A DNA stretch of 64,000 bases from Escherichia coli (GTDB taxonomy: Bacteria > Pseudomonadota > Gammaproteobacteria > Enterobacterales > Enterobacteriaceae), in NCBI RefSeq assembly GCF_017348835.2, contig NZ_CP071375.1. One strand, given 5' to 3'. The position numbers and the translations under genes are program-made. Positions 28,451 through 31,234 of the stretch are shown piece after piece. A model generated the notes under the pieces. That model was not told the origin of the DNA. It searched no databases and worked only from the letters and a program-made list of their open reading frames with translations. Position 1 is the stretch's first letter, and every line of letters starts with the position of its first letter.

Positions 28451-29854
28451 TAGCGGCGCTACATCATCCCCATCGATACGAATAACCCCATCTTTTTCCA
28501 GCTTGTACAGCCAGCGCCGGAAGTTTTTCATTTCATACCCCAGTTTTTTCATGTCATCACGTAACAGCGGGATCGTGCACTTGTCGCCGTTCTGTGTGCG
28601 TGAACGGATGCACCCCCATAGCGCGGTATGGTTTTCCGTCTTGTTCCCTGCCTCCTCGATGCGCTCCAGTTCTGCCGGTTCGCGTGGGATGTCAATCACC
28701 ACCATGGACACGATTTCTTCACCCTCAGGATCCGTAAATACCTCCACGCTCTTAAGGTCGTAGGCACTTTCTTTTGGCTCCTCCGCGTCCTTCATCTTCG
28801 TACATGCTGCAACCAGCGCCGTAGCCTCTGAATGTTCCCGACTGATTCGGAACTCAGCATCAAGCGCCGCACGGAATGCACTGGAACCCCGCGCCCCTTT
28901 CGTCTCATCCTTGCCGGAATGATGCACAACCAGAACCGTGGCCCCCGTGGCCTGCTTTATCGCGTCACACCCCTGGATAAACGCCCCCATGTCGCGGGAG
29001 TCATTTTCATCATGACCACCAAAGCAACGGGCCAGCGTGTCAATGACAATCATCCGCACCCTTTCGCCCGTTCTGTCCTGCACTAATCCGGCGGTCCTGA
29101 TAACCTGTTCCACATAGTCCGGCGATGCGGGGAATACTGGCGAATTGACGATACACAAATCAGTAACCGCCTTACCGTGGGTTATTTCCCATGCCTTAAC
29201 GCGGCGCTTTACGCCCATACTTCCTTCACCAGCAACATAGATAACCGCGCCTTTACACACCCTGCGGCCTCCCCATTTCATTCCAGTGGCAACATGACAC
29301 GCCCACGAAATGGCAAGGAACGACTTATAGGAACCGCTCGCCCCGTAGGTGCTGCATAATGCTTCCGCCGGAATAAGCCCCTTAATCACGTAGCTTTGCT
29401 GCGCGTCGAACCCTTCCGATCCCCATGAAATCGGTAGCGTGATTTTTTGTTTTCCTCCGTTCATGATCAGGCTTTCCCCTCTCTCCCATGTCTCCCGTAG
29501 CCGTGGAAGCTGGTCGGTCCATTTCTCCAGTAATTCGAAGTTTTCAGAAAGCAGCCGCGCTTCATGGACTCCGGCGATCGCCAGTTTTGTCGCTATGGTT
29601 AACAGCTGCGCTTCGTCAATATTTCCGGCGCGTATCACCGTTACCCTGTATCGCCCCTCATCAACAATCTGCAGGTTGTCCAGTTCGCTTAACTGATAAC
29701 GCCCCAGGTAAACGGGAGGCGTGGAGTCTCCCGCCTTTTTGGCCTGTGCAATGATGTAGTGCTCTGCAAATGAGTGCGCATCATTCCCCGCGAAAATAAT
29801 TGCTTCGGTGTGTTTGTCTTTCGGTAATAGTTTTACGTTCGGTGCCAGTTTCAT
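28448..29854 (-). CDS. Replication protein, RecA-like P-loop NTPase (putative replicative helicase / primase-associated)
   Basis: 468 aa; Walker A GASGSYKS and Walker B-like MIVIDTLARC; lies upstream of the iteron origin. Confidence 0.55.
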   Translation of the reverse strand: MKLAPNVKLLPKDKHTEAIIFAGNDAHSFAEHYIIAQAKKAGDSTPPVYLGRYQLSELDNLQIVDEGRYRVTVIRAGNIDEAQLLTIATKLAIAGVHEARLLSENFELLEKWTDQLPRLRETWERGESLIMNGGKQKITLPISWGSEGFDAQQSYVIKGLIPAEALCSTYGASGSYKSFLAISWACHVATGMKWGGRRVCKGAVIYVAGEGSMGVKRRVKAWEITHGKAVTDLCIVNSPVFPASPDYVEQVIRTAGLVQDRTGERVRMIVIDTLARCFGGHDENDSRDMGAFIQGCDAIKQATGATVLVVHHSGKDETKGARGSSAFRAALDAEFRISREHSEATALVAACTKMKDAEEPKESAYDLKSVEVFTDPEGEEIVSMVVIDIPREPAELERIEEAGNKTENHTALWGCIRSRTQNGDKCTIPLLRDDMKKLGYEMKNFRRWLYKLEKDGVIRIDGDDVAPL

Positions 29855-30150
29855 TTTTTACCCCTGAATACGTTAAGCATCTTTTTTATTTCCTGAATAT
29901 TGGCGCGTGCTTTCTCCCTGCTGGTTGGAACGTTACGCGGTACAGCCTGCACCAGAGAAAAATCACGGTCGAACTGATAAACAGGCATCACGCAATCATA
30001 TTCGTAGCCTTCACGACGGTAGGTTACGCGCCGTTCCTCCACGCCCTTAATCATTACCGTGCCGCCGTACTGGTCGCGGTAAATATCACCGCGCATGAAT
30101 TTAGTGCGAGTTTTGCCACTGGCAGTTAAGCCAGAATATTTAAGTTTCAT
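29851..30150 (-). CDS. Hypothetical protein (99 aa), coupled to rep
   Basis: ATGA overlap with the rep start. Confidence 0.45.
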   Translation of the reverse strand: MKLKYSGLTASGKTRTKFMRGDIYRDQYGGTVMIKGVEERRVTYRREGYEYDCVMPVYQFDRDFSLVQAVPRNVPTSREKARANIQEIKKMLNVFRGKK

Positions 30151-30155
30151 TATTT

Positions 30156-30389
30156 TTATTCTCCGGTGTGCTGTTCTTTATATCTGTCGTGCAATAGATC
30201 TATTTCTTGCAGTTCCATTATTACATGCTCAAGAATCGTTATTAATGCCGTGGCAATTCTTGATTTTTGTTTGTCGCGTTCATTGTCGCCAAGTGTTTCA
30301 AGCCATATGCGCAATATTTCCAGCATGTTTTCACTGTGAGAAAGTGCAAGAAATGCGCGGTCTATTGTTTCGAGGTAAATATCACGCAT
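30156..30389 (-). CDS. Hypothetical protein (77 aa)
   Basis: ORF in the operon upstream of rep. Confidence 0.4.
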   Translation of the reverse strand: MRDIYLETIDRAFLALSHSENMLEILRIWLETLGDNERDKQKSRIATALITILEHVIMELQEIDLLHDRYKEQHTGE

Positions 30390-30390
30390 A

Positions 30391-30612
30391 TTAATCCCCG
30401 TCCGTTGTTTTTCTTAAAATAACTTCTGTCACGAAATCAGCATAGTTAGCGGCAATATCAAGAATATTTAGCCCTGTATCTCTGTGCTCATCAGTGCAAA
30501 GAAAGAAAAAAGCCACCCGCATAATTTCAGATATTGACGAAAGCGCATCAGCCGCATCATCAGGAACGCCGGAAAATTCTTGTTTCAGGGAATTAAAACG
30601 ATCATCACGCAT
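30391..30612 (-). CDS. Hypothetical protein (~73 aa; start uncertain)
   Basis: ORF in the operon; start chosen just downstream of the preceding stop. Confidence 0.3.
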   Translation of the reverse strand: MRDDRFNSLKQEFSGVPDDAADALSSISEIMRVAFFFLCTDEHRDTGLNILDIAANYADFVTEVILRKTTDGD

Positions 30613-30821
30613 AACCCCCCCCATTTTCATAATCTGCAACAAGAATATTTTTAGCGTCATTCAGCGACCGCGTGGCGGTGTATCGGATACATTCCAGGGC
30701 GAACAATGTGTATTCCTCCCGTTCTTCCTTTTGTGCAAGCTCTGCCGTGCATTCAATATCAATAAGCGCGTGCATCAGCGTAGTGAGTGCGGCTGCGTCC
30801 GGACGGATGTTATTGCACATG
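30605..30821 (-). CDS. Hypothetical protein (~72 aa)
   Basis: ORF in the operon; start at internal Met MCNNIRPD. Confidence 0.3.
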
Positions 30822-31043
30822 GTGTACCCCTCCGCATTTTTTTTCGTTAGAAATAAGCGTTCTTCTTTCCTGTTCATCGCTCAGGAATACGCAGACCTCA
30901 CCGCTAAGGCGTTTAAGTAAGCCGATGATTGCCCCTGATTCGCTGTCGGTCATCATGCCAGGGTAATCCTCTGCCAGTGCGCAAATAACTTCGATTTGGT
31001 GGGCGCGTTCTGCTGCCTGTTGTAGTGTGATTTCCTGGCTCAT
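30810..31043 (-). CDS. Hypothetical protein (~77 aa)
   Basis: ORF in the operon; start MSQEITLQQ, ATGA-coupled to the upstream gene. Confidence 0.35.
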   Translation of the reverse strand: MSQEITLQQAAERAHQIEVICALAEDYPGMMTDSESGAIIGLLKRLSGEVCVFLSDEQERRTLISNEKKCGGVHHVQ

Positions 31044-31234
31044 AAGCCTACCCCCTGGCGAATACGGGCGGCGAATACAGCAACACAACCTGACGGGCAA
31101 CGGTTACGCGCTTCGCGTTCCGTCCAGGCGGTTACGTGGATTATTTGAGATTCTCCGGCACTCAGTGCCAGAAAACGCCACACAAAGGCCGTTTGTGTGT
31201 GTACAAGGTGTGGTATATGATTTACAGCAACCAT
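31040..31234 (-). CDS. Hypothetical protein (~64 aa), first gene of the minus-strand early operon
   Basis: Start MVAVNHIPHLV; lies next to the divergent promoter region. Confidence 0.3.
   Translation of the reverse strand: MVAVNHIPHLVHTQTAFVWRFLALSAGESQIIHVTAWTEREARNRCPSGCVAVFAARIRQGVGL

What the first reader, a model, noticed from the sequence alone, without database searches (positions are those of the whole stretch)
29851..31234. Operon of six small translationally coupled ORFs of unknown function upstream of rep
Six ORFs of 64 to 99 aa are tightly coupled (ATGA overlaps) and none matches a family I recognise. In satellites, this position holds regulators, helper-interference proteins or anti-phage cargo, so these are candidate novel effectors.
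Basis: inference. Interest (0 to 1): 0.5.

Follow-up and report, generated by a model that had tools for sequence, protein, structure and literature searches.

The report
Conserved early operon of a phage satellite
The six small genes are real, but they are the standard, already-annotated early gene block of a well-known E. coli phage satellite (a PICI): the first encodes a relative of a phage protein that stops cell division, and most of the rest still have no known function.

Summary
The six ORFs exist on the minus strand (29851-31234) and are real genes. All match PHROG families, dN/dS is mostly 0.2-0.45, and each exact protein occurs on 31 to over 1000 public contigs.

They are not a new cargo set. 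The same block, in the same order, lies upstream of the replicase in EcCICFT073, the prototype Gram-negative PICI. The window's island (int, AlpA, this block, RepA helicase, SSB, PerC, capsid genes; about 11.3 kb in tqsA) belongs to that family.

Two ORFs have families. ORF1 is Icd-like and aligns to the FtsZ-binding core of phage P1 Icd. ORF6 is DUF4222, modelled as a small SH3/Tudor-like beta-barrel.

ORF3 and ORF4 are two halves of one gene split at a hypermutable G8 tract (G7-G11 elsewhere, in frame in 34%). ORF2 is occasionally fused to them at an A8 tract. ORF2-5 are acidic, helical and Escherichia-restricted, with function unknown.

No defence-family match was found, and the block is not in a known PICI defence hotspot.

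Extra finds are an own promoter with allele-specific repeats that track the divergent YlcI/YnfO gene, and a covarying terminator on the antisense strand, which suggests a cis-antisense RNA over the Icd-like start.

Verdict: ordinary known module, with some untested regulatory leads.

The parts
31040..31234 (-). ORF1, 64 aa, Icd-like protein (basic, pI 10.3); first cistron of the operon
   Evidence: NF033153 at 5e-18, 64.9 bits against a cut-off of 25. It aligns at 39% identity to P1 Icd residues 8-50, which covers the 12-51 FtsZ-targeting core (PMC11897509). SD AGGAG lies upstream of the ATG.
30810..31043 (-). ORF2, 77 aa, acidic helical protein; optional module
   Evidence: phrog_1478 at 3e-28. 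74/74 identical to the EcCICFT073 homologue. Detected in 23 of 89 classified islands. ATGA overlap with ORF1. Rarely fused to ORF3-ORF4 as 217-221 aa proteins.
30837..30844 (-). A8 tract at the ORF2/ORF3 junction
   Evidence: A7 gives an in-frame ORF2-ORF3 fusion (L005; P0107 on 52 contigs). A8 in 15 of 16 IMG/VR loci that carry ORF2.
30605..30820 (-). ORF3, 71 aa, acidic helical; N-terminal half of a bipartite gene
   Evidence: phrog_5146, and the N-terminal half of phrog_2512. Fused to ORF4 as 144-154 aa proteins in many E. coli.
30615..30622 (-). Hypermutable G8 tract at the ORF3/ORF4 junction; also serves as the SD for ORF4
   Evidence: G7 23, G8 34, G9 17, G10 4 and G11 2 in 80 viral contigs. 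16 of 37 near-identical locus pairs differ in tract length. Deleting one G and one A gives a single 216-aa ORF.
30391..30612 (-). ORF4, 73 aa, acidic helical; C-terminal half of the bipartite gene
   Evidence: phrog_24341 at 4e-42, and the C-terminal half of phrog_2512. Own ATG two bases after the G tract.
30156..30389 (-). ORF5, 77 aa, acidic helical; very narrow family
   Evidence: phrog_2196 at 1e-38. Only 10 clusters at 50% identity among 1.84 billion proteins.
29851..30150 (-). ORF6, 99 aa, DUF4222, basic (+10.5); ATGA-coupled to the replicase
28448..29854 (-). Replicase, 468 aa, 'helicase RepA family'
   Evidence: phrog_2850 at 1.6e-190; RefSeq name. The N-terminal ~126 aa is shared (46% identity) with the primase-type and DUF927-type replicases of sister islands.
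31339..31367 (-). Sigma-70-like promoter of the operon (TTGACG-17-TAATAT)
   Evidence: The same TTGAC[AG] architecture is seen in related islands. Consensus match only; not shown to be functional.
31326..31410 (.). Three direct repeats GTGGCTGACA(CC), read on the minus strand, at 31326-31337, 31351-31362 and 31399-31410; candidate operators
   Evidence: The repeat sequence differs between islands and tracks the YlcI/YnfO allele one-to-one.
31228..31308 (+). Candidate cis-antisense RNA (~80 nt) over the ORF1 RBS and start, ending in an intrinsic terminator (stem 31263-31299 plus T tail). A putative -10 TATGAT at 31216-31221 lies just outside this range.
   Evidence: Hairpin: 98.1% of cells paired, 7 of 11 pairs compensatory, 0 of 500 shuffles as good. 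25 G-U cells against 1 A-C, and a U-rich tail only on this strand. The fold has z = -4.97. A -10-like element lies at a fixed distance in most islands. A SymR-like sub-threshold hit lies at the same place in L006. Expression is not shown.
31429..31608 (+). Divergent YlcI/YnfO-family gene, 59 aa; candidate repressor of the operon
   Evidence: NF041551 at 60.6 bits against a cut-off of 30. Allele-operator association.
32109..32297 (-). AlpA, 62 aa
   Evidence: PF05930 at 5.6e-18. AlpA activates downstream PICI genes in EcCICFT073 (PMC6092414).
32672..33901 (-). Tyrosine integrase; left end of the island
   Evidence: RefSeq annotation. A 23-nt direct repeat occurs at 22668 and 33927.

Best explanation
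The block is the conserved early operon of an EcCICFT073-type phage-inducible chromosomal island (PICI), about 11.3 kb, inserted in tqsA.

Shown:
- The six cistrons and the replicase are co-oriented and overlap or nearly abut.
- The same block occurs in the prototype PICI, and its core order recurs in about 90 sister islands that carry three different replicase types.
- ORF1 is a homologue of the FtsZ-binding core of phage P1 Icd.
- ORF3 and ORF4 are halves of one gene separated by a hypermutable G tract, and each half keeps its own SD and ATG.
- ORF6 is a basic SH3/Tudor-like DUF4222 protein, ATGA-coupled to a replicase whose N-terminal domain is the only part shared by all replicase types.

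Inferred:
- On helper-phage induction, AlpA and/or loss of a YlcI/YnfO-type repressor bound to the allele-specific repeats turns on the promoter at 31339-31367.
- The Icd-like protein arrests host division. Its translation is damped in the uninduced state by a cis-antisense RNA that ends at the covarying antisense-strand terminator. This parallels the logic of C4/icd in P1 and SymR/SymE.
- Ribosomes then pass by coupling through ORF2-5 to DUF4222 and the replicase. ORF2-5 are small acidic helical proteins, most likely protein-binding modulators of host or helper factors that act together, as their natural fusions suggest. The coupling sets the dose of replication proteins.
For: Identity of the element:
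- RefSeq context, AlpA Pfam match, att repeats.
- Same block in EcCICFT073, with 49-100% protein identity.
- Core order conserved in about 90 islands.

Genes are real:
- PHROG matches, dN/dS, contig counts.

Icd:
- NF033153, pairwise alignment to P1 Icd, FtsZ targeting and the 12-51 core (PMC11897509).
- P1 icd/ant1 also overlap by 4 nt.

AlpA activation of the downstream genes:
- PMC6092414.

Split gene:
-.

DUF4222:
- Pfam match, model, fold matches, position next to the replicase, shared replicase N-terminus.

Regulation:
- Promoter and repeats, allele tracking, terminator covariation and strand test.
- C4 and isrK upstream of the icd-like gene in sister island L002; SymR-like hit in L006.
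Against: - No experiment addresses any of ORF1-6 in a PICI; none was found in the searchable literature.
- Similarity to P1 Icd is only 39% over 46 residues, and tblastn does not find P1.
- The fused ORF2-4 model was unreliable (pLDDT 46.7), so 'helical protein binders' rests on composition and secondary structure only.
- The antisense promoter is weak by consensus (8 of 12 at best). No Rfam family reaches threshold in the window.
- The YlcI-repeat link is a correlation. Some islands (L003, L009) have repeats but no YlcI gene.
Confidence: 0.55

Rival explanations
1. Some or all of ORF2-6 are helper-interference or anti-phage effectors: small inhibitors that bind helper or competitor phage proteins.
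For: - ORF2-5 are small, acidic (pI 4.3-5.0) and helical, like many phage-protein inhibitors.
- PICIs interfere with their helpers (PMC6092414).
- The families are absent from bona fide phage genomes, so they are satellite-specific.
- Two ORF5 comparisons show an excess of non-synonymous change.
Against: - No PADLOC match.
- The block is conserved core, not variable cargo.
- Known PICI defence hotspots are elsewhere (PMC11364771).
- A separate mechanism for E. coli PICI packaging redirection and helper blocking has been published (abstract of PMC6739421).
Confidence: 0.2
2. ORF1 plus the antisense RNA form a type I toxin-antitoxin-like addiction module that stabilises the island. The downstream ORFs are functionally unrelated passengers.
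For: - The Icd core is toxic in E. coli (PMC11897509).
- An antisense-strand terminator and a -10-like element sit over the toxin's start.
- A full-length SymR-like hit lies at that place in L006 (E 8.5e-5 in the local search).
Against: - The SymR score of 33.3 is below the gathering score of 61, and there is no hit in the window.
- ORF1 is ATGA-coupled to ORF2, and the order icd, ORF3, ORF4, DUF4222, replicase is conserved. That argues for one operon rather than a stand-alone module.
- In sister island L002 the same gene sits behind a C4 immunity RNA, as in the lytic-switch region of P1.
Confidence: 0.15
3. ORF2-4 are decaying fragments of a once-intact gene of about 216 aa, broken by frameshifts. 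They are translated poorly or not at all and have no function.
For: - Removing one A and one G restores one long ORF.
- Intact fusions exist.
- The frame distribution at the G tract is about one third in frame, as expected without selection on frame.
Against: - dN/dS is 0.26-0.47 for ORF3 and ORF4 in the informative comparisons with other split-gene islands.
- Every piece keeps an SD and ATG, and these Met codons are also kept in the fused forms.
- The split state is the majority: the common split-form proteins are on over 1000 contigs each, against 52-258 for the fused forms looked up. It is also the state in the mobilisable prototype EcCICFT073.
- The lack of frame preference is equally expected if both states are functional.
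Confidence: 0.05

Closest known systems
EcCICFT073, prototype Gram-negative PICI (E. coli CFT073, NC_004431.1 1377930-1388654)
   Same: Same order: int, AlpA, YlcI/YnfO (divergent), Icd-like, four small ORFs, DUF4222, replicase, hypothetical, SSB, PerC, capsid and decoration genes. ORF2 is 74/74 identical, ORF3 60/73, ORF4 58/73, ORF5 66/77 and ORF6 85/99. It has the same A8 and G8 tracts.
   Different: - The window's island sits in tqsA rather than next to roxA.
- Its replicase is a RepA-family helicase (468 aa) rather than a primase-family protein (584 aa); only the N-terminal ~126 aa are shared.
- Its Icd-like allele (32/65 identical) and its operator repeat sequence differ.
- Its head-decoration and terS genes are annotated as frameshifted.
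Phage P1 immI operon (c4 - icd - ant1/ant2)
   Same: A small Icd-family first cistron overlaps the next gene by 4 nt. Its ribosome-binding region is the target of an RNA regulator (annotation of AF234172). Sister island L002 has real C4 and isrK elements right upstream of its icd-like gene.
   Different: - The window has no C4 or isrK match.
- The downstream genes are not antirepressors.
- The putative RNA here is cis-antisense, not a processed trans-acting RNA from the same transcript.
SymR/SymE type I toxin-antitoxin (cis-antisense RNA over the toxin's start)
   Same: A predicted antisense RNA of about 75-80 nt with two hairpins starts just inside the ORF, covers the SD and AUG, and ends at a terminator.
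   Different: - Below the Rfam gathering score in L006 (33.3 against 61), and no hit in the window.
- The protein is Icd-like, not SymE.
- Expression is untested.
Satellite P4 left (early) operon: small genes upstream of the alpha primase-helicase (own knowledge)
   Same: Small regulatory and helper-manipulating genes sit in one operon that ends in the replicase.
   Different: tblastn of ORF1, ORF6 and the fused ORF3-4 against a 50,697-record phage collection that should include P4 (its presence was not checked) found no P4 match. The resemblance is positional only.

Membership tests
Gram-negative PICI (EcCICFT073 type) | Integrase followed by co-oriented AlpA | tested here: met
   Integrase at 32672-33901; AlpA PF05930 at 5.6e-18.
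Gram-negative PICI (EcCICFT073 type) | Own replicase (pri/rep) downstream, co-oriented | tested here: met
   RepA-family helicase at 28448-29854; phrog_2850 at 1.6e-190.
Gram-negative PICI (EcCICFT073 type) | Size about 10-15 kb with flanking att repeats and no lysis or tail genes | tested here: met
   A 23-nt repeat at 22668 and 33927 bounds about 11.3 kb. The annotation lists only capsid, decoration and terS-like late genes.
Gram-negative PICI (EcCICFT073 type) | Synteny and sequence similarity with the prototype | tested here: met
Gram-negative PICI (EcCICFT073 type) | Induction and high-frequency transfer by a helper phage | not testable with these tools
   Needs an experiment. Frameshifted terS and decoration genes raise doubt about this copy.
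Icd family (NF033153; phage P1 Icd) | HMM score above the curated cut-off | tested here: met
   64.9 bits against 25. P1 Icd itself scores 52.6.
Icd family (NF033153; phage P1 Icd) | Covers the functional core, residues 12-51 of P1 Icd | tested here: met
   ORF1 residues 13-58 align to Icd 8-50 at 39% identity. Core defined in PMC11897509.
Icd family (NF033153; phage P1 Icd) | Binds FtsZ and blocks division | not testable with these tools
   Needs expression and two-hybrid or pull-down assays.
P1 immI-type module (c4-icd-ant) | C4 RNA upstream of icd | tested here: not met
   No Rfam hit in the window. Met in sister island L002.
P1 immI-type module (c4-icd-ant) | Antirepressor gene downstream of icd | tested here: not met
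   ORF2 has no Pfam or NCBIfam match.
DUF4222 (PF13973) | Pfam HMM match | tested here: met
   6.8e-24, model positions 2-53 of 53.
Known anti-phage defence systems (PADLOC-DB 2.0) | Match to any defence protein model | tested here: not met
   No families for any of the seven proteins at E <= 1.
SymR antitoxin RNA (RF01809) | Score at or above the gathering threshold | tested here: not met
   Window: no hit. L006: 33.3 bits against 61.
Phase-variable (contingency) locus | Homopolymer tract within coding sequence whose length varies between near-identical sequences | tested here: met
   G7-G11. 16 of 37 near-identical pairs differ. Caveat: homopolymer sequencing error.
Phase-variable (contingency) locus | Tract length switches expression ON and OFF | tested here: inconclusive
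   Out-of-frame states still leave an SD and ATG for the downstream half. The consequence would be fused versus separate proteins, not an obvious ON/OFF switch.

The most novel reading that the evidence does not exclude
Gram-negative PICIs of the EcCICFT073 type have a so-far undescribed control layer on their early operon. It has three parts. First, a divergent YlcI/YnfO-family protein acts as an allele-specific repressor, the 'missing' Stl-like master repressor. Second, a SymR-like cis-antisense RNA silences a toxic Icd-like FtsZ inhibitor. Third, a hypermutable G tract toggles a satellite-specific protein between one fused and two separate polypeptides.
Probability: 0.3. Interest if true: 0.6.

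Novelty: new member of a known kind. Interest (0 to 1): 0.33.

Why it matters
The block itself is a standard part of a known satellite family, so it adds little as a discovery. Its value is as a pointer to a gap: the best-studied Gram-negative PICI carries six conserved early genes that nobody appears to have tested. One is a probable FtsZ inhibitor, and the rest are restricted to these satellites.

The regulatory leads bear on an open question stated in the founding paper (PMC6092414): whether Gram-negative PICIs have a repressor, and how they are kept silent. The leads are the YlcI/YnfO-linked repeats, the antisense-strand terminator and the hypermutable tract. All can be tested with simple experiments in CFT073.

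Tried and rejected
- DNA search of the block against 50,697 phage records: no match.
- tblastn of ORF6, fused ORF3-4 and ORF1 against phages: one weak hit, none, and one satellite-like hit. These are therefore not ordinary phage genes at BLAST level.
- Pfam on ORF2-5: nothing.
- PDB sequence search on ORF2, ORF3-4, ORF5, ORF6 and YlcI: only chance-level hits.
- AlphaFold2 of the virtual ORF2-3-4 fusion: pLDDT 46.7, so no fold search was run on it.
- Fold searches with the DUF4222 model: generic SH3/Tudor/KOW barrels and uncharacterised phage proteins, with no specific function.
- Profile-profile comparison among ORF2, 3, 4 and 5: no paralogy, probability below 1%.
- Rfam on the island and on the leader alone: no family.
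- Longer 153-155 aa 'Icd-like' members of ORF2's cluster: considered as ORF1-ORF2 fusions and rejected, because their sequences are unrelated long Icd-like proteins.
- Literature searches for DUF4222, YlcI/YnfO, EcCICFT073 ORFs and SymR with PICI: no functional data.
- cf-PICI (capsid-forming PICI) was considered for the island. No cf-PICI hallmark genes (portal, protease, large terminase) are annotated, and gene content matches the classical EcCICFT073 type.
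Full report
**Observation.** The region 29851-31234 carries six consecutive minus-strand ORFs.
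- ORF1: 31040-31234, 64 aa.
- ORF2: 30810-31043, 77 aa.
- ORF3: 30605-30820, 71 aa.
- ORF4: 30391-30612, 73 aa.
- ORF5: 30156-30389, 77 aa.
- ORF6: 29851-30150, 99 aa.

A 468-aa replicase follows at 28448-29854. Each start has an SD-like sequence. Two junctions (ORF1/ORF2 and ORF6/rep) are ATGA overlaps. The others are 11-nt and 8-nt overlaps and 1-nt and 5-nt spacers. RefSeq annotates the same six CDS in the 100% identical locus of E. coli PE164.

**They are genes, not chance frames.**
- All six match PHROG families, with E from 1e-11 to 1e-42.
- dN/dS against sister islands is mostly 0.2-0.45.
- The exact proteins occur on 31 to over 1000 public contigs.

**What the element is.** The surrounding annotation lists, in order: integrase, an AlpA-family HTH (PF05930), a truncated gene, a divergent YlcI/YnfO gene, the six ORFs, RepA-family helicase, SSB, PerC, major capsid, head decoration and terS-like genes. 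The island is inserted in tqsA between 23-nt direct repeats about 11.3 kb apart.

Fetching the prototype Gram-negative PICI EcCICFT073 showed the same gene order, including the six-ORF block. Identities are ORF2 74/74, ORF3 60/73, ORF4 58/73, ORF5 66/77 and ORF6 85/99. Only the Icd-like allele (32/65) and the body of the replicase differ.

Across about 90 related islands, the core order is icd, then ORF2 or an unrelated 70-aa gene or nothing, then ORF3, ORF4, usually ORF5, then DUF4222 and a replicase. These islands were selected because they carry the ORF3/ORF4 junction. The replicase is of three types: RepA helicase, primase family or DUF927. The block is therefore conserved core, not cargo. 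In EcCICFT073, AlpA activates the genes downstream of alpA, and the helper phage induces alpA (PMC6092414).

**What the proteins are.**

*ORF1* scores 64.9 bits on NCBIfam NF033153, 'host cell division inhibitor Icd-like', against a cut-off of 25. It aligns at 39% identity to residues 8-50 of phage P1 Icd. P1 Icd binds FtsZ, and its residues 12-51 are sufficient for division inhibition (PMC11897509). The same HMM covers exactly residues 12-51 of P1 Icd.

*ORF6* is DUF4222.
- With an alignment that includes a lambdoid-prophage subfamily, AlphaFold2 gives a usable model: mean pLDDT 78, core about 90. It has five strands, a short helix and a basic C-terminal helix.
- DUF4222 lies directly upstream of the replicase in every classified island whose fetched DNA reaches a replicase. 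All three replicase types share only their N-terminal ~126-131 residues. This suggests a conserved DUF4222 plus N-domain unit.
- However, DUF4222 also occurs next to xis in the CFT073 lambdoid prophage.

*ORF2-5* are acidic (pI 4.3-5.0) and predicted all-helical.
- They have no Pfam, NCBIfam, PADLOC or PDB relatives.
- They are not paralogues of each other.
- The listed ORF3-ORF4 relatives are all E. coli.
- ORF5 has only 10 clusters among 1.84 billion representative proteins.

**ORF3 and ORF4 are one gene.** PHROG 2512 (154 aa) spans both. O157:H7 and O111 islands annotate a single 154- or 148-aa protein. The 120 best database hits to a virtual fusion cover it essentially end to end (89-100%), most as 144-151 aa single proteins.

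The junction is a homopolymer.
- It is G8 in the window (30615-30622) and in CFT073, G7 or G10 where the gene is fused, and G9 in other split forms.
- In 80 IMG/VR satellite contigs the tract is G7 in 23, G8 in 34, G9 in 17, G10 in 4 and G11 in 2. That makes 34% in frame, the fraction expected with no preference for a frame.
- Of 37 locus pairs with at most 3 mismatches in 700 nt of flank, 16 differ in tract length. The tract therefore mutates much faster than its surroundings. Sequencing error in homopolymers is a caveat, but the CFT073 reference genome and the protein clusters seen on hundreds to thousands of contigs show both states.

A second tract, A8 at 30837-30844, separates ORF2 from ORF3. 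A7 alleles encode 217-221 aa ORF2-3-4 proteins but are rare: 1 of 16 in IMG/VR, and 52 contigs against over 1000.

In every state each segment keeps its own SD and ATG. The likely consequence is fused versus separate polypeptides rather than on/off expression. The natural fusions argue that these modules work together.

Upstream of ORF1 there is a sigma-70-like promoter (TTGACG-17-TAATAT, 31339-31367). Three GTGGCTGACA repeats lie in and around it. Sister islands keep this architecture but use a different repeat sequence. The repeat type tracks the allele of the divergent YlcI/YnfO gene (NF041551), for example 9 of 9, 5 of 5 and 5 of 5. It does not track the AlpA allele. This makes YlcI/YnfO a candidate operator-binding repressor.

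Between the promoter and the ORF1 SD lies a GC-rich hairpin (31263-31299) that exists in 27 sequence variants.
- On 19 distinct sequences, 98.1% of cells pair and 7 of 11 pairs show compensatory changes. No shuffle of 500 does as well, and slid controls drop to 43-60%.
- The hairpin contains 25 G-U cells and 1 A-C cell when read on the plus strand, which is antisense to the operon. A U-rich tail follows it only on that strand: mean 5.2 against 1.0 U in 10 nt.
- It is therefore an intrinsic terminator for antisense transcription.

A -10-like element (TATGAT or TATAAT, within the first six or so codons of ORF1) sits at a fixed 41-43 nt from the hairpin in both divergent Icd N-terminal types. The implied RNA of about 80 nt folds into two hairpins with the anti-SD in the first loop (z = -4.97).

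- In island L006 this exact place and strand gives a full-length SymR hit (33.3 bits, below the gathering score of 61).
- In island L002 the icd-like gene is instead preceded by bona fide C4 and isrK RNAs, as in P1 immI. This is consistent with the 'Bro zone with immunity RNAs' described for Gram-negative PICIs (PMC10111431).
- The window itself has no Rfam match, and expression of the antisense RNA is unproven.

**Mechanism.**
- Most likely (0.55): this is the satellite's early operon. It is switched on after helper induction and starts with a tightly controlled FtsZ-inhibitor homologue. Translation runs by coupling through satellite-specific small proteins to DUF4222 and the replicase.
- Helper-interference or anti-phage roles for ORF2-6 (0.2) are not excluded. 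They lack support: there is no PADLOC hit, the block is conserved core, the known PICI defence hotspots lie elsewhere (PMC11364771), and a separate mechanism for E. coli PICI packaging redirection and helper blocking has been published (abstract of PMC6739421).
- A stand-alone toxin-antitoxin reading of ORF1 (0.15) and a pseudogene reading of ORF2-4 (0.05) are less likely, for the reasons given under the rival explanations.

**Novelty and verdict.** The finding is a new copy of a known module: a different integration site, replicase type and regulatory alleles. Its genes are already annotated in thousands of genomes and present in the prototype PICI. I found no paper that tests them. The interesting residue is regulatory and untested: the YlcI-linked repeats, the antisense-strand terminator and the hypermutable tract.

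Noticed in passing
window 31326-31410 and 31429-31608: Three direct repeats around the operon promoter differ in sequence between islands. They track the allele of the divergent YlcI/YnfO gene, not the AlpA allele, which makes YlcI/YnfO a candidate allele-specific repressor of Gram-negative PICIs.
   Followed up: partly
window 31216-31308 (+ strand): A covarying intrinsic terminator lies on the strand antisense to the operon, with a -10-like element at a fixed distance inside ORF1. Together they suggest a cis-antisense RNA of about 80 nt over the Icd-like RBS. There is no Rfam hit here, but there is a SymR-like sub-threshold hit at the same place in L006 (4279-4351).
   Followed up: partly
L002 5127-5312 (E. 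coli N5D43 island at tRNA-Pro): A sister island has bona fide C4 (77.6 bits) and isrK (66 bits) RNAs directly upstream of its icd-like gene, a P1-immI-like arrangement. So at least two different RNA-control solutions precede the same operon in different islands.
   Followed up: partly
window 31604-32051 (- strand): The gene between alpA and the operon is a truncated pseudogene here. In relatives it is annotated as incomplete Icd-like, BRO-N or Ash protein, and it is an intact 247-aa gene in L009. Its 3' part seems to have been replaced by the YlcI/YnfO cassette.
   Followed up: partly
window 28265-28449: Three copies of a 17-nt repeat (TTTTTCGCCTCACTTTT), spaced 83-85 nt apart, lie just downstream of the replicase gene. 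They overlap inverted repeats and may be the island's replication origin iterons.
   Followed up: no
window about 23857-25430 (L001 4458-6031): RefSeq marks the island's terS-like and head-decoration genes as frameshifted. This copy of the satellite may be defective for packaging.
   Followed up: no
window 28448-29854; L011 10242-11996; L009 392-2524: Three different replicase types (RepA helicase, primase family, DUF927) share only their N-terminal ~126-131 residues (46% identity), directly after DUF4222. The exchange point lies inside the replicase gene.
   Followed up: partly
window 30156-30389: ORF5 shows an excess of non-synonymous change in two comparisons: dN/dS 1.38 against L002, and 5 non-synonymous to 0 synonymous changes against L003. 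In the other comparisons dN/dS is about 0.2-0.35. The numbers are small, so this may reflect mosaic recombination or diversifying selection.
   Followed up: no
window 22668-22690 and 33927-33949; tqsA fragments at about 22457-22600 and 34078-34983: The island splits the AI-2 exporter gene tqsA. The 23-nt att repeat itself contains a tandem GTGACTACACC motif.
   Followed up: no
L010 15192-15431 (CFT073 lambdoid prophage at icd): A second, 79-aa DUF4222 subfamily sits next to xis in the exo-xis region of a lambdoid prophage. It is widespread in Citrobacter, Enterobacter and Salmonella, and unlike the PICI copy it is not linked to a replicase.
   Followed up: partly
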